A DNA stretch of 63,910 nucleotides, counting the filler, from Cercozoa sp. M6MM (lineage: Eukaryota > Protista > Endomyxa: Ascetosporea): NCBI GenBank assembly GCA_040357565.1. It is 6 parts of 6 records of this genome, joined end to end, with 100 filler letters (N's around TTAATTAATTAA, not from the genome) between each part and the next. Parts side by side here need not be neighbours in the genome. Positions count along the whole stretch, not along the records: positions 1 to 24,417 come from JBDODJ010000158.1; 5 more parts are not named here. One strand, written 5' to 3'. The translations under genes were made by a program, and so were the position numbers. This document shows, in pieces, positions 2,955-48,428 of the stretch (positions within the stretch are counted from its first letter, which is position 1; each line of letters starts with the position of its first letter). The notes beneath the pieces were generated by a model that was not told where the DNA came from, did not search any database, and saw only the letters and a list, made by a program, of their open reading frames with translations.

Positions 2955-5900
2955 GTGAATGAATATGTGTGTGTGTATGTGTGTGTGTGTGTGTCCTTGT
3001 GAATGCAGTTGCCACGTCGGTGCGATGCGCAAGCCGGCGGTGCAGGTGTGTTTGTATTCATTTGCGACCGCTCTTCCTTCGTGTTATTTCGTTTCTTGTG
3101 TGTGTGACAGGCGAAGGCGCCGATGCACCGACGCAGTGTCCGCTCGACCCGTTCCAGGTATGAAATGCAAACTGTCAAACGCCCGCGCGGATGAATGCGT
3201 TTACTTGGCAATGACAGGTCGTTCCGGACGCCAGCGAGTTTGTCGACATTCAGGTAGTTGCGTTTTAAATTTAACTCTTGCACATCAAAGCAACTAACTG
3301 ACGAAACGAGAACAGCGACTCAAGCTGCAAGAACGTCCAGAAGACGTTGCAACTGGCGAAATGGTACCTTTCATCCGGTTTTGATGGGAAGAATGGCTAC
3401 ACGCATGGGTGTATCGACCATGTAGCCGCGCAAACTGACACTGTACGTCGATCGTGCTCTCGTCGGACGTTGCAAGCCTGGCGCACGTGTCGATATCGTC
3501 GGTGTCTACGATGTCTTTGGTGCTTCTCGACAGGCTGGCCGTCAGATGACACAGGTACTTTCGCTGCTGGGAAGTTGGACTTGATTGCGCTTTAATCTGG
3601 ATTGTTCAGAGCAAGGGTGGTGCCGTTGCACGCGTTCCTTACGTACTGCAGTTTCTTTCTCCCTTTACTCATATGTACGAATGCCTGTGTGCTTGTTCTC
3701 TCAGGTGCGTGTGGTTGGTCTGCGTCACATTGGTACAGCTTCTGCTTTACACGAGGAAAGCGAGAGATTATGCTGACTTAACAGAGGCGGGTCAAAATGC
3801 CAACCGCGCGGAGTTTGAGGACGAGTTTGATGTACTTGATTTTCTTTGTTTTGAACGCTCAAAAACAAACCCAAATGTGTACAGGACGAAATGGAAGCAC
3901 GTCACATTCGCCGTGCATTGCCTGGTGAGCTAAAAAACACCGATGATTTTGTATTTTGAAACTCCGTGGAGAAAATGAAAACTGGGCAGGTCAGCTGTCA
4001 TCGACGGAAATCGAAGCTTTCCGTGCGCTGGCGCAGCAGCGGTAGTTTTGTGCCAACTTAGAGTCTGTTCTGTGAGTTTAGTGTGTGTGTGTGTGTGTGT
4101 GTTTTAGCGATGTCGCCGAACGAATTGCCAAAAGGTGCAAAACTCTTCTTTGTCGTTTTTGTGGATTTTCATTTGTCCTCGTTTGTGGCACAGTGTTGCG
4201 CCGCGCATTTTCGGACACGATGACATCAAGTTGGCTGTTGCATGTCTACTGTTTGGCGGCACTGAGAAGAAGATGCCCACTGTACCCTGTTCAGAACATC
4301 TATGAACAGATTCATCAGTTTTGTTCTTTGACGTATTGCGATGTAGGGACGGTTGCGTGGCGACGTCAACGTTCTGTTGCTCGGTGGGCAATCTAAACTC
4401 GCATAGTTTCTCTCTTTCAGCTGTTTCTCTAATGTGTGTGTGCAGGTGACCCGTCGGTCGCAAAGTCACAGTTTTTGAAGTTCGCGGCGAAAGTTGCTCC
4501 GATCGCAGTTTACACTTCCGGCAAGGGCAGGTGCGTTTCCCCTTTTCGTTCAATATTTAGACCCGCAGGTTTTATACTTCCGCGCGGTTTCTCAGTTCGG
4601 CCGCCGGTCTGACGGCTTCTGTGTTGCGTGACCCAGTGACACGCGAGTTCTCGTTGGAGGCAGGTGCCATGGTGTTGGCCGATGGGTACACTCGCTTGTG
4701 CGTATCCTTCTCTCTCTTTCTATATATATATGTATATATGTATAGATATGTATATATATATATAAATATATATAATCTTTTACTTTCATTCTGGTGTCGC
4801 AATACACAGAGGCATTGTATGCATTGACGAATTTGACAAGATGGACGAGCGCGACCGTGTTGCCATCCACGAGGTGCGGCCAGAGTGCTCGTGTGTTTGC
4901 ACATGGTATGACTGTGTGGTGTGCAGGCCATGGAGCAGCAGACGATCTCGATCGCCAAAGCCGGTATCACGACGGTGCTGAACTCGCGAGCAGCCGTGCT
5001 GGCGGCGGCCAACCCAGTCTACGGTCGCTACGACGGCAGCAAAACCAGTGCCGAAAACATTGACTTTGCCTCATCGATCTTGTCGCGATTCGACCTCATC
5101 TTTGTGGTAGGCACACCCTTTCTGACCCCTTAGGTACACATACAACATCCTCGAACGTAGGTGCGCGACCGTGTGGACCGTGAGGCCGATCGACGTCTGG
5201 CCAAGCATCTCATCTCGCTGCATCAGGGCGGCACTGCCGTCGAGGCTGCCGAGGCACGTCCGGACATGCCTGTGGTACGCCTGCCTCGTACCTCTGTGGC
5301 ACGACTGTCCTGTACCTCTTCTCGAGTGTGCAGAACGAAGTGATCGCGAACGAGGAGATGCCGCTGCCGATGGACATTCTGTCCAAGTACATCAAGTACT
5401 GCAAGGAGCACTGCCACCCGCGACTAGACGACGACGCGCACGAGCTGCTGCTCAACTCGTACACTCTCCCTGGGGAACCTATATTGACTGTCTATCTGTC
5501 GTCTTGTAGGTACGTCAAGTTCCGTACCGAGTCCGCGCGAAAGTCAAAGAACGGCGATCGCTCGGCCATTCCGATCACTGTAACTTGCACCCCCTCCCCT
5601 CCACCCTCGGGTACATCAGAGAGGTGCTTGCAGGTTCGTCAGTTGGAAGCCATTGTGCGTCTCAGCGAGGCACTCGCCAAGATGGAACTGTGCCCTGCTC
5701 TATCCTCCTTGTGTATGATATTCGTCTTAACCTCTTGCCCTGACAGGTCACCGCATGCGACGCGTCGTCACGTGCAGGAAGCCGTGCGACTCTTCCGCGG
5801 CGCCACCATGAATGCTGTCGTATCACTCCTTCTGCTGCCTTCCCCTTCTAACTGAGACACAGGGATGCTACCCGTGTATGCTACCCGTGTATGCTTGTGC

Positions 5901-14221: not shown

Positions 14222-14874
14222 ATGTCGAGCGCCACAGTGACCGTTACTGACAAGGATTCACCGGAGTATGGCTCGCACACGCCGATCCAGAACCTCACGT
14301 ATGTTGTCTGGCTTTTGTGCACGCTCTGGATCGTCACACAGTTTTTTTTTGCATTGGGTCGCGATCACTTTTTGATCTGTACGTGTTGTATGTATGTCTG
14401 CTGCAGGTTCTCTGCCGAGGGCACGGTGGAGATTGTTCCGGATCCGTCTCCTCGCTGGTACGCATGTCGACTAGTGTTCCCTGCTTCGTTTAAATTCGCA
14501 ATCATCACAGGATGAAGATCGGCAAGGTCGTGCTCGCCTTCTTGATCCTGTATGGTGTGTACGCTGGTTTCTACGGTGCTCTTCTGTCGGCGACACTCGC
14601 CGGTACGATGCCTCTATGCTTCCTTGCATGTGCGAGTAAAGTTACATGCTCCCACAGGCGAGGAGACCACCCTGTGGGTGTTCTTCGGCATCTTTGTTGC
14701 CGCTCTTGTCATCCTGACGGCCCTTGTCTTCAAGACGCAGCGCCAGATTGCTGCTGAGGTAGAATTGTTTTTTCTTAATCTTGAGGGTCATTTGCCTGAT
14801 TGCAAATTAAAATGTGACTGTCGCAGGAGGAGGACGAGGAATACATGGAGGACCTTGACGAGAAGCAGGGTTAA
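14222..14874 (+). CDS. Small two-TM hypothetical protein with acidic C-terminus
   Basis: Five exons give MSSATVTV...SPRWMKIGKVVLAFLILYGVYAGFYGALLSATLAGEETTLWVFFGIFVAALVILTALVFKTQRQIAAEEEDEEYMEDLDEKQG*. Confidence 0.7.
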
Positions 14875-15210
14875 CAACGTCCATCGCTCACCCTTCAATT
14901 CCCGCACTTCCGCTTTTCCACGCGAAGCAATTGTGTAAGAGAGGACTCGAATTGTCGGAGTGGTCTAGATTGATTTGTGTCGTGTATTTTCGAGCTGAGC
15001 ACGTCAGTGCTTCGTGCTCCACACTCGTGCCTAACTTTCAGTCAATATTATGCCCAACTAGCAGTTGGTTAGATTTCCAGAAAGTGGATTATTTGGGTGT
15101 CCGTGTCGTCAGTGGCATGTAACTTTGCCATTTAAGCTTGTAGCACACTCGCTGTCTTAAGCTACGTGCGCTAGCCGACAAGCCTGGTATGTCACTAGCG
15201 ATATGGCTGG

Positions 15211-15225
15211 CCCATGATGCGAAGT
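15211..15225 (+). promoter_or_regulatory. Putative upstream promoter element of snoRNA copy 1 (CCCATGATGCGAAGT)
   Basis: 14/15 identical to 17296-17310 on the - strand, and lies 63 nt from box C in both copies while neighbouring sequence has diverged. Confidence 0.55.
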
Positions 15226-15258
15226 ACAATTTCGCTCTGCGCTAAACAACAAACGCGA

Positions 15259-15377
15259 GGCGGTGTCAGGTGCTTGGTCGAACAGCAAGGATGAAAAACG
15301 TTTATCCCTAGTTGAGTCCTACGGGGCAACTCCAATTACATGAGAACACAGACTAGAGTCTCTGAGCCACCTTTTTT
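15259..15377 (+). ncRNA. Box C/D snoRNA, SNORD52/snR78-like LSU rRNA Um guide (copy 1, with 5' leader)
   Basis: C-like box AGGATGA at 15288-15294. Guide ACAGACTAGAGTC (15348-15360) is complementary to the conserved LSU rRNA sequence GACUCUAGUCUG. Box D CTGA at 15362-15365, then a T6 run. The 5' end is inferred. Confidence 0.75.
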
Positions 15378-15474
15378 GTTTCTTCGGGCTCTCTTGGCCC
15401 TCGGCTTGCCCTTGACTTTTGCCCAACGAGCAAGTTAGACTTTAACTAACAACTAGGCATGGCAAGCGGAGGTT

Positions 15475-15883
15475 TTAGTCGGTATTGTTTTGGAGCGAAA
15501 CGGTGATCTCTTCGAGTCTGGCAACACGTTCTTTGTCCAGACTGCAGCTGTCCGAGTCGCTGCTCAGGCTATCTTTGGCGCCTTCTTCCGACGCTGAGAG
15601 CGACAGTTCCGACCGTGACAGGATAATCATGCGGTCACGCTCTTGCCTGCCGACTGCCCTCTCTGCCGTTGCTTGTCTCTTGGCAGATCTGTCTCTGCAC
15701 AGACACAGGGGCATGTGCATGTGCCCAGTATGCGGTATGTGACTGATAGAGATAGGGAGAGAGAGAGAGAGAGAGAGTACACTCTTGCACGCTCTGCGGC
15801 GAACTCTCGCACCTGGTCTCGAAAGCCCGAGTTGGGCCACACCTGGCAGAGTGCACGCGACACTTGCATAACACACACACACA

Positions 15884-15937
<54 letters not shown>

Positions 15938-15947
15938 NNNNNNNNNN

Positions 15948-15996
<49 letters not shown>

Positions 15997-16154
15997 CCAG
16001 GGTGCTAGGAGTACAATCTCACGACGCCGGCGCAAGAAGGACAACGCCTCGTCGTAGCTCTGCAGGAAGGGCAAGTCGTCGAAGCGACGCGGCGTGCGGC
16101 GACACAGCAGCCACGCCAGCACGACCGAAGCACTGCGCGAGATGCCCTGCCAGT

Positions 16155-16197
<43 letters not shown>

Positions 16198-16886
16198 GAT
16201 ATATAATATATATATTAGTATATTATATACACATATACAGACTGCACCTGCTCGCAATGCACGAGGATCCTCGCGTTCTCGTTCTCCAGCGCGTCATCCA
16301 TGAACCTCACTGCGCACAGAGCAGACACTTAGGACCTACCAGGCAGGAGAGGAAACAGGGCAAGCACACCCGCTCGCGGCAGGTGCGACCGGATGTCGAC
16401 GCGCGCAAAGTCGTCGATCGGAATGTTCAGAAAGGAGAGAGTCCTGTCCGACGGAAACAGCGGCGGCCTGTGCGACACAGTTCGAAACTGCTGAAACAGG
16501 CCACAGTGTTTTGCAAGAAGGGTAGTACATGCGAGTGACGTTGACGACGTGCGTGATCTGCAGTCGGCGCAGGTGTGGCCGGTACGCCGCCGATCGCACA
16601 CCACTCAGGTACAGCGTGTCCTCCACCTGCATACACAAACAGCTTTCCCTTTTGTGCAGATGGTATACTGTTTGTTACAACTGTATCTGGAACAGGCGGC
16701 GCAATGCCTTCGTTTGCGTTGCGTACCGTCGCATCTCGCACCCTAATCTACAGTACAGTGAGCGCACATACACTGTGGCACATGTGGGAGTATTTTTGAG
16801 AAATGGAGTACCCACATCGGCTCATAGTGCATGTCGATCTCGCTGACTTCATCCCCATGCAAGCAAGATGTCAGCCTCGCGCCCAT
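15475..16886 (-). CDS. Dual-specificity protein phosphatase
   Basis: LYLSG, ITHVVNVT, IPIDD, catalytic ILVHCEQGISRSASVVLAWL and VWPNSGFRDQ motifs. N-terminus MGARLTSCL. Confidence 0.9.
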
Positions 16887-17146
16887 GGCAACACTAGGCG
16901 TGGAAATACACTAAAACGCGCTTAGTTTTAGCGTGGTGTGATCATGCCTACATGCAGCTGCATGTAGCTGCGTTTAGTACACAAGACGGTTTTTGGTCGG
17001 GCGGAGCCACATTTACACTGTTCGGAGCCGACTGTAGGAAGGCATACTTCGTCGACAACCGTATTTACCCCCCGCTGAGGTCAGTAGCTTGGCCCGGTGA
17101 CCATTTGCCCACGGTCTTGCGACAAAAAAGAACAAAAATGAAGGAA

Positions 17147-17262
17147 CAAAATGGCTCAGAGACTCTAGTCTGTGTTCTCATGTATTTGGAGTTGCCCCGT
17201 AGGACTCAATTAGGGATAAACGTTTTTCATCTTCGCGGTTCGACCAAGGAACGCACACCGCC
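17147..17262 (-). ncRNA. Box C/D snoRNA, SNORD52/snR78-like (copy 2, inverted relative to copy 1)
   Basis: Reverse complement is near-identical to copy 1 from the C box to the D box, with the same guide, box D at 17156-17159 and a T4 run after it. Confidence 0.75.
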
Positions 17263-17295
17263 TGGCGCTTCTTGTCTCGCCCGAGTTGAATTTTC

Positions 17296-17310
17296 ACTTC
17301 GCGTCATGGG
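17296..17310 (-). promoter_or_regulatory. Putative upstream promoter element of snoRNA copy 2 (CCCATGACGCGAAGT)
   Basis: Same sequence and spacing as 15211-15225. Confidence 0.55.
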
Positions 17311-17404
17311 TAGTCAATTTCGAAAGTAGGACATTGTTTCTCCGACCCAACCTCTTTTACAACTGTACTTTAATTGAGCCACCACAGGCAGTCTGTAGGA
17401 CTCT

Positions 17405-18464
17405 TCAGGTTTGTTCGCGCACAAACACATTCTTCTGCGAGAGCAAGCGAATGTCCGTCGACAGCATGTCAAGTTCGCGCTCAAGAGCTTCCTTCAGCCG
17501 CTTTCTGGGCTCATCCATCGTGACCTGATGCGTCAACAATTGGTACTTGGCGTTAACGTCGTTCCATTTCTGCTGCAGGTCTGCTCAGATCGCTCACTGT
17601 GAACCAAAGGCAACAACGAGAAAGTGAAGTTATCGATACTGTACCATTGAGGATATCAAGTCGTTCTTCTTCAGGAAGCTGCGTGACTCGCAGGTCGTTG
17701 TGTTCTTCTTCTTCTTGTCGCAACTGCGCCATCTTTGCGACGGCTTCATACTCATGTTGCACTTGCTGTTCACAGAGTCGAGTTCGGACGGAACATTCGA
17801 TGCTTCACCCCTGGAGAAACGGAGGGTTGCTATACCTTTTTCACCTCGTCGAGGTACGCTGGAACACGAGCGAACTCCTCGTGTTTCAGCAGTTCGTCTG
17901 GAGGCGGGCTCTTTGGGCGGTTTGGCTCCTTCAAGATGTTTGCAATTGCTGCATTTAATCCAATAACATTATGCACAGAACAGGTTTGTCTCGAAGTGTG
18001 CATAAGGTTTAGAAGGGGTTGGGATTACCGTTCGCCTTGATGAAGTTCTTCTCGGTGGTCAGTCCATAGACAGGGGTTTCACTTGGCTTAGGGAGCGGCG
18101 GCTTTTTGTATTGCCGCTTCGACTTTTGAGGTGAGACATCTCGTCCACTAGACGCCAGTGTGCCGCTCTTTTTCTTGAGAAACTTCTTTGGCGACACCGA
18201 GCGCTTGACGACAGCTCCCATCGTAGCATGTGCTCGTGTCTTTTTCGATGGCTCCCCTCGAACACCGCCTGCGTTTTTCACACCCACGGAGGCAAAACTT
18301 GAAGCACCGAAAGTCGAACCTGTCGGAGGGACGTAACCGGCCTTGCTGAGGTAGCTCGGTTTCTGCCATGGGCGGCGTCGCGAAGGCCTTTTTCGGCTCG
18401 CGCACTCGGCCTCGGATTGCTCCAGAAGTGCATAAATGCTTTCCTGGCACTGAAGTGCTGCCAT
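17405..18464 (-). CDS. ENKUR: Enkurin (axonemal protein)
   Basis: ESIYALL near the N-terminus, TEKNFIKAN, FARVPAYL, LPEEERLDILNDLQQKWNDVNAKYQLL and KEALERELDMLSTDIRLL. Confidence 0.85.
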
Positions 18465-44337: not shown

Positions 44338-47300
44338 ATGGTGCTGCTCGAGGTGTTGCGTCGGAGGGCGCGCACGCTGAGCGATGCCATCCGCGACAGT
44401 GACGAGGAGGTGCGCATGCGCGCGACGCAACAGCTGCGGCATCTGCTGGATCGCGCTGGTGCCGAGCTGGGCGGTGATGCCTACGCCTCGCTGGTGGACA
44501 CGCTGCTGACAGCGGCACTGGAGATGATCCAGACGCCTCCCAAGGACCGTGCAGTGGCCTGGCGTTTGGGTGCACTCGGCGTCATGGACGCGCTGTGCGA
44601 CGACAAGGCACGTGCGCCGCAGCAGTCCGACGTCGACTCGATCGTGGGCCGTGTGCAGAGCTACCTGCTGCTGCTGTTTGATCAAGGCGACCGACAGGTG
44701 ATTCCCCAGGCAGCGCGTGTCGTTGGTCGGTTCGCCGTATCGCAGCTTGCGTCTGGAGTGCTCACGGCGGTGATCGAGCGTCAGGTGCAGGTCGCTACGG
44801 GCTGGCTTCAGTGTTCTGGTACGGTCCCTGTGTTACCGGGACTCTACGACATGAAGGTATACCACGACGGCACATGTATTGTTTGCTGTGCACACAGGCA
44901 GCAGCTGGCAGGACGTGCAGCGACGGCACGCAGGAGTGCTGGTGCTGAAGGAGCTGGCCGAGTGCGTGCCGACACAGTTCAATGTGCAGCTGGAGCGTTT
45001 CTTGAACTACATCCTGACGGCATGCTGCGACGCCGACGATGCGATTCGACGCGACGCCGTGCTTGCGCTTCGACACGGTCTGACGCTGGTGGCACGTCGT
45101 GCCGATGCGAGCTTCCGTGCCACAGCCTACGAGCGACTGTACAACGACGCCAAGCGGCGCATGGACGCGCGGCATGCGCGCTATGAGGCACTGCATGGCG
45201 CCTTGTTGATCCTGGGCGAGCTGCTGAGAGGCAGCGGCGATGGCTTCATGTCAGCGCGTTACAAGGACACAATGGATCTGGTGCTGCGCTTCCGGAGACA
45301 TTCGGACCAGCGCGTCAAGCTCGCCGTCATCGAGCTCGTTCCGCAACTCGCTGCCTTCTCTCCGTCGTAGTTCTTCCCATGCTTACCCCCTCCCACTCCA
45401 TTTGTTACGCCCTGTGTGTGTATGTGCTGTGAGCAGTGTCTTTGTCAAGTCGTGGCTGCATCCATGCGGCGACTTTTTGAGCGAGCACGTGCAGCGCGAC
45501 GTTAAGCTCGGCCGCTCGAGCAAGGAGCGCGACAAGGTGGCCGACGCACTGGGCCTGCAAACGGCGGCCTTCTTGTCCATGGGTCGACTGGCACTTGCTG
45601 TCAACACACACATGGAGCAGTGGCTCGTGCCTACGGTACCCTGCCTCCTTGTGTGTACCTTCTGTCCTGTGTGTACCTTTCACCCATGCATGTACAGGTC
45701 AGGTACTGCCGCAACCGACTGCTGCATGTGTCGCAGCTGTTGCAGCTGATCGGCACGAGCAGCAGCAGCTCGGTCGTGCCGTCGCTGTCGCGATCCAAGT
45801 CGGTCACGAGTGTACCGCTTGTCTGTCCCTGTGTGCCTCCCTGTCTCGCCTCCCTGTCTGTCTACAAGTGTGTTGTTCCACCTCATCTGACAGGTACAGT
45901 CGGAGGCACTGCTGGCGCAAGAACTGGCAGCACCGGCTTTGCGCTGCCTGTCGATGCTGGCCGAGGCACTGGGACCGCGCATGCAGGGACCCGTGGTCGG
46001 CGTGGTGGACCTACTGTTCGCCGACGGGCAGGGCGCGCTGCTGCTCTTCAACGAGACCTTTGTGCAGACACTGCAGCGTCTGGTGCGCTTCATCCCGGAG
46101 CTGCTGGGTCTCATCCAGGACCGTCTGCTGCGCGTCGTGACGGACATTCTTCTGGGCGTGCATGCGCCCTACGCGCTGCTGCAGGAGGCCGAGCGAGCGG
46201 CGGCGCAGTCGGGCAAGTCGACGCCGTCGGCCATGGCGCTTCTCGTGGCCGCTAGCAGCGGCAGCGAACGCGCGCAGAAACAACAACTCACGCTGGCCTA
46301 CGATGCCTACCTGCGTCACCAATCCGTGTATGGCAGCGAACTCAGTACCTTTGCCATCGGCACACCTGCCACCGGCTCGACGCGCGGCTCTGGCTCCGTA
46401 TCGGCCAGGTACCTCTCTCTCTCTTCCGTTTTGTGGTACGTCTAGAGTTGTATCCCTCCTCCCTACTGCAGGGACAGCTTGATGAGCACGGCGTTGGATG
46501 CACACGCGGTGCAGCAGCGTGCCGCATTAGCACTGCGTACACTGGGTAACTTTAACTTCGCGCCGCACGATCTGCTGCCGCTGGTGCGCGAGACAGTGAC
46601 GTGTTTCCTGGACGCTGCGTCGCCTGTGCTGCGTGCTGAGGCAGCCAAGTGCTGCGCCAAGATTGTGCTGCAAGTATGTCCCATGCCTTGTACATACGTT
46701 CCATACCGCTATGCTCCATGACTTATAACTGTGCTCCGTGCCCACTGCAGGTGTATGGCGACTCGGATGCAGCAGACGCGCCGTGTGCGGCCGATGCAGT
46801 GCGCAGTCTGAGCGACGAGCGGCGCTCGCTGGAGCTGGCGACGCGCGAGCGACACCGTGCCGCGCTAGTGGCGCAGATCCTTGAGCGCCTGCTCAGCGTG
46901 GCGGCCGCTGACCTGGACGCGTCGATTCGAGGTGCCGTGCTGCACACGCTGGAGCCGATGCTGCAGACGAAGGATGCGCGTCTGCGCCAGGTGCTCGCGC
47001 AGCCCTGGGCACTGCAGAAACTCTTGACTGCTCTCAACGACGAGTCCGAGAGTGTACCTTCTTCTTTGTGGGATTGCTTTTGGCCCCTATGGGTGTACGA
47101 GTGCATGCGATAGAATCGAGCAACAGCAACGACACTGGTGGGCAAACTTAGTGCAAGCAATGCGGCGGCAGTGCTGCCTGCACTGCGCAAGCTGCTGCTG
47201 CAGTTACTGGCCGAGTTGCACTACTCGGTGGACAGCGCGAGTCGGCGCAGCAGTGCCGAGCAGCTGCGCTGTCTGGTGGCAGCTGCGCCCGAACTGGTGC

Positions 47301-48428
47301 AGCCCTACGTGGCTTCGATCCTCAAGGTGCTGCTGCCGCGTGTCGACGACCAGGACGCCGATGTAGCCACGGCCGTACTGGCCGCACTAGGTGAACTGGC
47401 GCACGTCGGTGGCACCGATATGGCACGCTGTACCGACGAGTTGCTGGCACTGCTGGTGGGCCTGCTGCGCGACCAGCAGCGACTCGCGCGCGGCGACGAC
47501 GCCGCCTCACCGCACGAACGCGCGCGCGGCAACAGCGACGCCGCCGCTGGTGCCGCCGGTGCTGCCACCGGTGCCGACACGGCCGCTGACGATGCTCGCC
47601 GCGAGGCCCGGCGGCACGTGCGGCCTGACGTGGTACTGCGTGTCATGTCGGCCCTCGTGGAAAGTTCGGGTCGCGTGGTGGCGCCCTACCTGCGGCACGA
47701 GCGACTGCTGGATGTGCTGCTGCACTACGTCAGTCCGACTCATGGCTGGCATGTGCGCAAGGAGGCCATCCGATGTATCGGCGTGTTGGGCGCACTGGAC
47801 CCGTTCCAGTACCGGCAGGTACCTTGTGCGTCTGTACCTTCCCTTCTGTTCTTATTGCTACTTGTTGGCAGATCCGACAGGGACGCCTGGCGCGTCACTC
47901 AGAGGAGGCCTTCCCGGACTACAGTGCCACAGGAGGCGGCGACGACGGCGATGGCGACGACGAGGACAGCAAGCAGAACGGTCGTGTCACCGACCTGGCT
48001 TTGCTGCAGCGGCAGTTCCGCCTGCGCACCGATACCAAGGACGGCGTACGCTTCTTACCCCATCTGACCTTTATCCCATCTTACCCCCCCCCCCCGCCCG
48101 TATAGGCCCCTAACCCCTACCCTCACCTTACACCTAACCCTACCCCACCTTACCCTTAACCCCTACCCCACCCTATCTCTAACCTCTACCCTTACCCCAC
48201 CCTTTCGTGCAGAGCAAGAGCAGCAACGCGGATGCTTTCTACGAACGCTTCGTGCTGCACGCGCTGCTGAACATGCTGAACGACTCTTCACTGCTGCGGC
48301 TGCACCACCAATGCGTCGCCGCGGTGGACTCAATCTTTGCCACGCTGCGCGATCGGTGTGCCGACTTCCTGGACACGTCAGTGCCGACGCTGCTGCGCGT
48401 GCTGCGACACACTCGCTCGGACACTTCG
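44338..48428 (+). CDS. TOR: Target of rapamycin kinase, N-terminal HEAT region (3' truncated by contig end)
   Basis: RRHAGVLVLKELA..PTQF, HGALLILGELL, ALRTLGNFNF, LTALNDE, VGKLSASNAAAVLPALRKLLLQLLAEL, SSGRVVAPY and RKEAIRCIGVLGALDP. Confidence 0.9.
48107..48202 (+). repeat. Degenerate telomere-like (CCCTAA/CCCTAC/CCTTAC) tract in a TOR intron
   Basis: Reads cccctaacccctaccctcaccttacacctaaccctacccc... Confidence 0.5.

What the first reader, a model, noticed from the sequence alone, without database searches (positions are those of the whole stretch)
15211..17310. Twin stand-alone C/D snoRNA genes with an apparent hybrid Pol III promoter, facing each other across a phosphatase gene
Seen in sequence: an inverted repeat of about 165 nt (15211-15377 versus 17147-17310) that is conserved in blocks. 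The blocks are an upstream CCCATGAYGCGAAGT 63 nt from box C in both copies; TGGTCGAACMG (15275-15285 and 17236-17246), matching the Pol III A-box TRGYNNANNNG; a C-like box; a c(UACG)g hairpin; the guide ACAGACTAGAGTC plus box D; and a T-run. Established: this guide pairs with LSU rRNA GACUCUAG, and the D+5 rule selects the U methylated by human SNORD52 and yeast snR78, which are intronic or polycistronic Pol II products. Yeast SNR52 is the rare Pol III snoRNA with promoter boxes in a leader. Inference: monocistronic Pol III snoRNAs using an upstream element plus a leader A-box. The second conserved guide (CGTTTATCCCTA) has no target I can assign confidently.
Basis: partly seen in the sequence, partly recalled or inferred. 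Interest (0 to 1): 0.75.

Follow-up and report, generated by a model that had tools for sequence, protein, structure and literature searches.

The report
Twin double-guide snoRNAs with snRNA-type promoter
Two copies of a small guide-RNA gene face each other across a phosphatase gene in a protist genome; each is predicted to mark two conserved neighbouring sites in the large ribosomal RNA and is likely transcribed on its own from an snRNA-type promoter, a layout already described in ciliates and social amoebae.

Summary
The repeat is real: 202 nt, 78% identical, with a 77/79-identical box C/D snoRNA core. The D guide is the SNORD52/snR78 guide (LSU Um2421 site). The two sites lie at opposite ends of one rRNA helix; yeast, human, Arabidopsis, Dictyostelium and Neurospora use separate RNAs for them. 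The upstream CCCATGA element resembles the SNAPc-bound USE, and the same 7-mer sits 60-65 nt before U6 in 5 of 10 distinct protist or fungal promoters. That spacing puts the start site inside the proposed A-box, so the block is more likely the start region. The A-box consensus occurs 0.86 times per kb per strand, no B-box was found, and block conservation between two copies is barely above background. USE plus T-run snoRNA genes are known from Tetrahymena. Expression, polymerase and the organism's own rRNA are untested. The scan reported tRNA-like Pol III leaders on other DNA, nothing on this DNA.

The parts
15211..15225 (+). Copy A upstream element (USE/PSE-like, CCCATGA core), predicted SNAPc site
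   Evidence: 14 of 15 identical to copy B; same 7-mer 60-65 nt before U6 in 5 of 10 distinct promoters; USE cores listed in PMC8287931 Table 1
15258..15266 (+). Copy A second shared block AGGCGGTGT, role unassigned
   Evidence: 9 of 9 identical to copy B
15274..15285 (+).
   Evidence: 11 of 12 identical; spacing compared with U6 genes; inference
15284..15369 (+). Copy A box C/D snoRNA body (ends approximate): box C 15288-15294, D' guide 15299-15310, D' TTGA 15312-15315, UACG hairpin 15316-15327, C' 15337-15343, D guide 15349-15360, D CTGA 15362-15365
   Evidence: weak Rfam SNORD52 match E 0.28; Neurospora CD23 and CD5 guides
15372..15377 (+). Copy A T6 run, candidate terminator
   Evidence: background rate
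15475..16886 (-). Intron-rich dual-specificity phosphatase gene between the copies (bystander)
   Evidence: Pfam DSPc E 9e-5 on one exon; reading frames
17124..17151 (-). Copy B T4, T5 and T6 runs, candidate terminator
17152..17237 (-). Copy B box C/D snoRNA body (ends approximate): box C 17233-17227, D' guide 17222-17211, D' 17209-17206, C' 17184-17178, D guide 17172-17161, D 17159-17156
   Evidence: weak Rfam SNORD52 match E 0.15
17236..17247 (-). Copy B block TTGGTCGAACCG (proposed A-box, more likely start region)
17255..17263 (-). Copy B second shared block AGGCGGTGT
17296..17310 (-). Copy B upstream element (USE/PSE-like)

Best explanation
These are two paralogous box C/D snoRNA genes, each predicted to guide 2'-O-methylation of two conserved large-subunit rRNA nucleotides (the yeast Um2421 and Gm2815 sites) and each likely transcribed on its own from a SNAPc-type upstream element, probably by RNA polymerase III, starting at the TT|GG block about 12 nt before box C and ending at the T-run. 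Shown by the sequence: two copies, all four boxes, two guides, the internal hairpin, the upstream blocks, the T-runs. Following from known families: the D+5 rule and the identity of both target sites. Inferred: the element is bound by SNAPc; the start is near G15276 (G17245 in copy B); the polymerase is III; the TTGGTCGAAC block is the start region and 5' end of a short precursor rather than a TFIIIC-bound A-box; one snoRNP can hold both rRNA segments, which flank one helix at the peptidyl-transferase domain; the pair arose by an inverted duplication of one complete transcription unit.
For: snoRNA: core 77 of 79 identical against 53% in spacers; 19 letters of guide plus box identical to the Rfam SNORD52 consensus; 12-bp anchored D duplex in 6 of 6 eukaryotic LSU loci scanned (these loci were selected for that match); D' guide in the same register as Neurospora CD23, the snR38 homologue for 26S-Gm2773; both complements lie 391-412 nt apart in the 7 of 9 loci that are LSU rRNA, against 394 in yeast numbering (the search fixed this spacing range). 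Rfam structure: the D' target G pairs at one end of a helix whose 5' strand ends just before the D target. Promoter: USE cores CCCRTAA, ACCCAYAW, AACCCRTAA, GNCCCAYW in protists including a rhizarian (PMC8287931); 17 of 21 metagenome loci are U6 genes, about 10 distinct promoters, with CCCATGA at -60 to -65 in 5, at -74 with CCCATAA at -64 in 1, at -77 to -89 in 4, none at -38 to -59 although the pattern allowed it; the ciliate-like and Blastocystis-like ones (my labels, from the look of the promoters) start at YTGG as the window block would. T4 or longer begins 4-6 nt after box D in both copies at non-matching positions; a random 12-nt window holds T4 in 3-4% of cases. Precedent: Tetrahymena stand-alone snoRNAs with USE 53-125 bp upstream and T-tracts; Dictyostelium DUSE about 60 nt before the start, with a second box 60 nt downstream in some genes.
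Against: Only two copies from one genome; upstream block conservation is not clearly above background after shuffling. No TATA box, whereas the U6 promoters with the closest spacing mostly have one at -28/-29, and TATA-less type 3 promoters in green algae are described as Pol II targets. T-tracts can also end Pol II transcription (PMC11610936, start of abstract only). Four of the 10 U6 promoters have the 7-mer much further upstream and some of the 10 may be chance. None of the U6 loci shares the extension YGCGAAGT, and none is known to be rhizarian. The D' duplex is short: 9 bp in 3 of 7 LSU loci, 8 bp in the other 4, then a mismatch, against 11 bp for Neurospora CD23. The block AGGCGGTGT is unexplained. 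The organism's own rRNA, snRNA promoters and small RNAs were not seen.
Confidence: 0.5

Rival explanations
1. Hybrid Pol III promoter: an upstream USE plus an A-box in a 20-30 nt leader (start near 15255-15266), with no B-box; the leader is trimmed during snoRNP assembly as in yeast SNR52.
For: The block fits TRGYNNANNNG and the stricter TRGYNNARYNG (0.21 per kb per strand) in both copies; AGGCGGTGT lies 9-17 nt before it, where C. elegans UM2 transcripts start (9-13 nt before box A); human PSE is described as about 50 nt upstream; A-box-only transcription of a yeast snoRNA gene works in vitro (as cited in PMC2527325).
Against: No B-box consensus (recalled motif) within the regions scanned around either copy; both boxes were needed in vivo in yeast and C. 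elegans; the hybrid promoters listed in PMC8362101 combine upstream elements with internal A- and B-boxes; the CCC core would lie at -44 to -55, where none of the 10 U6 promoters has it; block conservation is marginal.
Confidence: 0.2
2. The same upstream element drives RNA polymerase II: a capped monocistronic snoRNA starts near 15284-15286, about one helical turn further from the element, and both downstream blocks are core-promoter sequence.
For: USE elements serve both polymerases, and TATA-less ones in green algae go to Pol II; DUSE precedes Pol II and Pol III genes; C. elegans PSE/UM1 precedes 11 snoRNAs and drives Pol II; the start would coincide with the usual mature end 3-5 nt before box C; Pol II can stop at T-tracts (abstract start only).
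Against: T-runs directly after box D in both copies and no T4 run inside the predicted transcript fit Pol III better; the TT|GG at +65 matches the U6 geometry.
Confidence: 0.17
3. The snoRNAs have no promoter of their own: each is cut out of the 3' extension of the protein gene just upstream, and the shared upstream sequence is the decaying remnant of the duplication.
For: Both copies lie on the same strand as, and just behind, a protein gene: 337 nt after the stop at 14872-14874 and 95 nt after the stop at 17407-17405; spacers are still 53% identical, so the upstream region is homologous anyway; shuffles do not single out the blocks.
Against: Homology starts about 17 nt before the CCC core and ends in the T-rich tail, the span of a transcription unit; the best-kept upstream block has the core and the spacing of a known promoter element; the two upstream genes are unrelated.
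Confidence: 0.1
4. The repeat is a pair of transposon ends or an assembly artefact.
For: It is an inverted repeat around 1.7 kb of DNA that holds a short assembly gap.
Against: The enclosed DNA is a spliced phosphatase gene; the repeat holds two rRNA guides; in run X1 the 5 records laid at 80% likeness all belong to the two copies and the listed differences are those of copy B (X1 may be the source of the window, contigs drop rare variants and depth is no copy number).
Confidence: 0.02

Closest known systems
SNORD52 / snR78 / AtsnoR37 / Dictyostelium CD22 / Neurospora CD5 (LSU Um2421 guides)
   Same: Same target and D+5 nucleotide; 19 letters of guide plus box identical to the Rfam SNORD52 consensus; Neurospora CD5 also has a UUGA D' box followed by a UCCUACGGG hairpin.
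   Different: The guide sits at box D here, at D' in snR78 and CD5 and directly after box C in the SNORD52 model; score below Rfam's threshold; partner guide is different (CD5 pairs it with the snR72 site).
snR38 / SNORD1 (snR38A-C) / AtsnoR38Y / Dictyostelium CD6 / Neurospora CD23 (LSU Gm2815 guides)
   Same: D' guide in identical register, UUAUCCCUA-N-box; same predicted G.
   Different: Shorter perfect duplex (8-9 bp, then a mismatch and 2 more pairs); carried on one RNA with the Um2421 guide, whereas the five species tabulated use separate RNAs.
Tetrahymena intergenic monocistronic snoRNAs with USE (AAACCCATAA) and T-tracts (PMC3273799)
   Same: CCC-core element upstream (53-125 bp before mature C/D ends; here about 73), T-run downstream, Pol III suggested but untested there too.
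   Different: Longer GC-rich element and two further shared blocks; different lineage.
Dictyostelium Class I RNA promoters, DUSE plus TGTG box (PMC7919456)
   Same: CCC-core element with a second conserved box about 60 nt downstream and before the mature RNA, T-run terminator; the authors leave open whether that box is a promoter element or the start of a precursor.
   Different: Class I RNAs are not snoRNAs; box sequence differs.
Yeast SNR52 and C. elegans UM2 snoRNA genes (A/B-box Pol III promoter in a leader)
   Same: Stand-alone snoRNA, A-box-like sequence before the mature RNA, T-run.
   Different: They have a B-box and no USE; no B-box consensus was found here.

Membership tests
Box C/D methylation-guide snoRNA | Box C (RUGAUGA) and box D (CUGA) able to form a kink-turn | tested here: met
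   Box D is canonical; box C is a variant (AGGAUGA / AAGAUGA) that keeps GAUGA; a 2-bp GC/GC stem flanks the motif in both copies (read)
Box C/D methylation-guide snoRNA | Internal D' and C' boxes | tested here: met
   D' UUGA, UACG hairpin, C' UACAUGA in both copies; the same D'-hairpin string occurs in Neurospora CD5
Box C/D methylation-guide snoRNA | Antisense element to rRNA before D or D', target at position 5 | tested here: met
   12 bp (D) and 8-9 bp (D') against LSU rRNA of other eukaryotes; both positions are known methylation sites
Box C/D methylation-guide snoRNA | Complement present in the organism's own rRNA; RNA expressed and sites methylated | not testable with these tools
Rfam SNORD52 (RF00276) | Score at or above the gathering threshold of 45 bits | tested here: not met
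   21.9 and 20.8 bits; works like it, not filed as a member
snR38/SNORD1 family | Rfam match over the whole RNA | tested here: not met
   No such family among the 12 matches to E 10; only the guide matches
Type 3 / snRNA-type (SNAPc) promoter | USE/PSE with CCC core about 60-65 nt before the start | tested here: inconclusive
   Core and spacing fit if the start is G15276; start not mapped
Type 3 / snRNA-type (SNAPc) promoter | Same element before the organism's U1-U6, 7SL, MRP genes | not testable with these tools
   No genome; only the two copies in the window match with fewer than 3 mismatches
Type 3 Pol III promoter | TATA box near -30 | tested here: not met
   None in either copy; some U6 promoters also lack one
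Type 2 or hybrid Pol III promoter (SNR52, UM2) | A-box inside the transcribed leader | tested here: inconclusive
   Consensus matched in both copies but common by chance; position relative to the start unknown
Type 2 or hybrid Pol III promoter (SNR52, UM2) | B-box downstream of the A-box | tested here: not met
   No match to the recalled B-box consensus on the snoRNA strand in 15150-15700 or 16800-17400
Pol III gene | T4 or longer right after the RNA and none inside it | tested here: met
   necessary, not sufficient
DNA transposon ends | Many copies, transposase, target-site duplication | tested here: not met
   Two copies only among the records laid from X1; enclosed gene is a phosphatase; target-site duplications were not searched for separately

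The most novel reading that the evidence does not exclude
This rhizarian lineage transcribes guide snoRNAs with Pol III from a promoter made of a SNAPc-bound upstream element plus a leader A-box and no B-box or TATA box, a promoter type not among the described hybrids, and it has joined the Um2421 and Gm2815 guides in one RNA that clamps both ends of one peptidyl-transferase helix during ribosome assembly.
Probability: 0.15. Interest if true: 0.65.

Novelty: new member of a known kind. Interest (0 to 1): 0.33.

Why it matters
Rhizarian non-coding RNA genes are nearly undescribed in the papers these searches reached. The pair gives a candidate 15-nt promoter element that can be used to pull out this organism's snRNA, snoRNA, 7SL, MRP and telomerase RNA genes, the strategy of PMC8287931. 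It adds a rhizarian case to the ciliate and amoebozoan pattern of stand-alone, USE-led snoRNA genes, which bears on whether that was the ancestral way to express guide snoRNAs. The double guide links two widely conserved methylations that flank one rRNA helix, a simple test case for simultaneous use of both guides. If the A-box reading held, it would be a new Pol III promoter type, but the evidence leans the other way.

Tried and rejected
No whole genome is held, so the genome scan for the element could not be run. Rfam at gathering threshold found 0 families in the window; at E up to 1 the 10 matches over the whole window are below threshold and, by their places, mostly in microsatellites (not examined one by one); ARAGORN found 0 tRNA genes, so no intact tRNA leader. 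Sequencing runs: no RNA holder listed. Run X2 (RNA is a guess) has a 173-nt contig on 14859-15019 and no cover of the snoRNA; X3 and X4 gave only short low-complexity pieces; none of this bears on expression. The organism's own LSU rRNA was not read, so both duplexes rest on other eukaryotes. A pattern for the double-guide layout found 0 loci in metagenome contigs; target-pair and U6 patterns found 0 in viral contigs; the element-plus-A-box pattern found 1 viral locus, L010, with no snoRNA features by eye, taken as chance. Of the 9 loci (L003, L009) are not rRNA and were dropped; of the 21 loci, 4 are not U6 and were dropped, and L021 was judged by eye as a near-copy of L013. An unanchored energy scan of the D' guide put the Gm2815 site first in only 3 of the 7 LSU loci, and a scan that demands pairing from position 2 finds it in 3 of 6, so the assignment rests on the Neurospora match, not on energy. 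Folding of the RNA with or without leader is not better than shuffles (z from -1.3 to +0.9); a leader-to-3'-end stem forms in copy A only. The reverse strand of the TGGTCGAAC block misses the recalled B-box consensus by its last letter; an inverted B-box was considered and left as unlikely. A third guide-like hit at 4967-4981 lies in MCM coding sequence and was rejected. A first homologue search with an argininosuccinate synthase exon gave no lineage. PMC11892584 (passages) and PMC3116282 (passages) added nothing on this guide pair. The supplement of PMC8287931, which lists USE motifs by species and may cover more rhizarians, could not be read.
Full report
Observation. The inverted repeat is there: arms 15194-15395 and 17126-17327, 202 nt, 78% complementary, 1730 nt apart, in one ungapped register. 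Similarity falls to background outside it (9 of 44 upstream, 4 of 25 downstream). Inside, 15290-15368 is 77 of 79 identical, while the spacers upstream average 53%. The DNA between the arms is a spliced dual-specificity phosphatase gene on the minus strand, about 16886 to 15475. In run X1, which may be the source of the window, the 5 records laid on 14500-15750 at 80% likeness all belong to the two copies. A TOR exon elsewhere in the window is identical to a protein labelled cercozoan, so the organism is taken to be a rhizarian.

The RNA. Both copies have box C variants (15288-15294; 17233-17227), a D' box TTGA, a UACG-capped hairpin, a C' box, and a canonical box D. Rfam finds nothing at gathering threshold and a weak SNORD52 match at both copies (21.9 and 20.8 bits, threshold 45), with 19 letters of guide plus box identical to the consensus. 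Seven of 9 loci fetched by a pattern for both guide complements are eukaryotic LSU rRNA; the D guide forms 12 Watson-Crick pairs in each of the 6 scanned with the anchored rule, and position 5 falls on the U that PMC8817022 tabulates as yeast Um2421/snR78, human Um3904/U52 and Arabidopsis Um2411/snoR37 (passages read). The loci were selected for this match, so the count shows that the site exists, not how common it is.

The second guide. Neurospora CD23, listed as the snR38 homologue guiding 26S-Gm2773 from its D' box (PMC2780460: passages; supplement rows; supplementary file 4 whole), carries UUAUCCCUA, one nucleotide, then the box: the same register as the window's guide. The predicted target is therefore the yeast Gm2815 / human Gm4362 site. 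Against it: the duplex is 9 bp in 3 of 7 LSU loci and 8 bp in 4, followed by a mismatch and two more pairs, and an unanchored energy scan ranks the site first in only 3 of 7. In the Rfam LSU structure the target G forms the terminal pair of a helix whose 5' strand ends directly before the D target (helices 74 and 75 in the numbering I recall). One snoRNP could thus hold both ends of that helix. Yeast, human, Arabidopsis and Dictyostelium and Neurospora use separate RNAs for the two sites; guide swaps of this kind are common in fungi, including for the snR78 guide (PMC5824354, passages). Paper searches for the pair listed none that, in the parts I read, reports one RNA for both sites; I did not open most of the listed papers.

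The upstream element. CCCATGAYGCGAAGT occurs only at the two copies in the window. Its core resembles the USE of SNAPc-type promoters: CCCRTAA, ACCCAYAW, AACCCRTAA, RTCCCWTA and, in the rhizarian Plasmodiophora, GNCCCAYW (PMC8287931, passages; supplement not readable). With no genome to scan, I asked where the same 7-mer lies before U6 genes in metagenomes. One search gave 21 loci; 16 of the 20 scanned are U6, and L021 is a near-copy of L013. In the window the first C lies 65 nt before G15276, in CTT|GGTCGAAC, and several of these U6 genes start in the same YTGG context. That places the likely start inside the proposed A-box, where an A-box cannot act. Limits: the U6 contigs are of unknown lineage, none shares the longer extension, some may be chance, and most with the matching spacing have a TATA box that the window lacks.

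The A-box. The match to TRGYNNANNNG is exact in both copies, but the consensus occurs 110 times in the window (0.86 per kb per strand; the stricter form 0.21), and no B-box consensus (recalled motif) lies near either copy. Two copies cannot separate selection from recent common descent: position-corrected shuffles give P 0.17 and 0.04 for the two longest runs and 0.21 and 0.41 for overall clustering. In C. elegans UM2 and yeast both boxes are needed in vivo, though an A-box alone works in vitro, and UM2 transcripts start 9-13 nt before box A (PMC2527325, passages). That geometry would put the start in the AGGCGGTGT block and the element at about -55 to -37, near the 'approximately 50 nt' given for the human PSE (PMC8362101, passages). 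So the hybrid reading stays open at about 0.2.

Polymerase. T6 begins 6 nt after box D in copy A; T4, T5 and T6 follow in copy B at other positions; there is no T4 inside the predicted transcript, and a random 12-nt window holds T4 in 3-4% of cases. This favours Pol III but does not prove it: TATA-less USE promoters go to Pol II in green algae and Pol II can end at T-tracts (PMC11610936, listing and start of abstract only). Both copies also sit just behind a same-strand protein gene, so processing from read-through is a minor rival.

Comparison and novelty. Tetrahymena has a USE before 22 of 27 intergenic snoRNAs, 53-125 bp from the mature C/D ends, with T-tracts after the monocistronic ones and Pol III suggested (PMC3273799, passages). 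Dictyostelium Class I RNA genes have DUSE with a second box about 60 nt downstream whose role as promoter element or precursor start is open (PMC7919456, passages); this is the closest architecture. Searches for rhizarian snoRNAs or such promoters listed no paper on them among the results shown (20 of 394, 20 of 85). Earlier notes of this scan hold tRNA-like Pol III leaders before snoRNAs in other genomes and nothing on this DNA. Verdict: a real, well-formed pair of double-guide C/D snoRNA genes with a probable snRNA-type promoter; a new member of a known kind, with a guide pairing not seen in the five species checked. Interest 0.33; the hybrid-promoter case would deserve 0.65 at probability 0.15.

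Noticed in passing
window 14874-15211 and 17310-17405: Each snoRNA copy lies on the same strand as, and shortly behind, the stop codon of a protein gene (a small membrane-protein-like gene; an enkurin-like gene, Pfam E 0.034 on one exon). Copy B ends about 260 nt before the phosphatase start codon on the same strand. Inverted copies on both sides of one gene would fit a staggered-break inversion (inference).
   Followed up: partly
window 15258-15266 and 17263-17255: A third shared upstream block, AGGCGGTGT, 9 of 9 identical, with no assigned role.
   Followed up: partly
window 15337-15365: The C'-guide-D half aligns to the C-guide-D' half of the SNORD52 model, and the first half has the layout of snR38; the RNA could be a fusion of the 5' halves of two single-guide snoRNAs (inference).
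   Followed up: no
L020 1-2777: A metagenome contig links the 5' end of SSU rRNA, U6, two tRNAs and 5S rRNA within 2.8 kb; its U6 and those of L014/L022/L029 have a CCCATGA at -86/-87 and no TATA box.
   Followed up: no
L014 about 645-656: ACTACCCATGA before this U6 gene is identical to the 11 letters at the start of copy B's upstream element; lineage of the contig unknown.
   Followed up: no
L015, L017, L018, L028, L031: U6 promoters with two tandem USE-like cores, CCCATGA at -74 and CCCATAA at -64, exactly one helical turn apart.
   Followed up: no
L001, L002, L004-L008: Seven prokaryote genome bins in genome contigs carry eukaryotic LSU rRNA contigs; L008 has a group I intron.
   Followed up: no
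window 47114-48064: A TOR kinase HEAT-repeat exon is 100% identical over 74% of its length to P0121, labelled by its source as a cercozoan (Rhizaria) protein; the next hit is 40% identical.
   Followed up: partly
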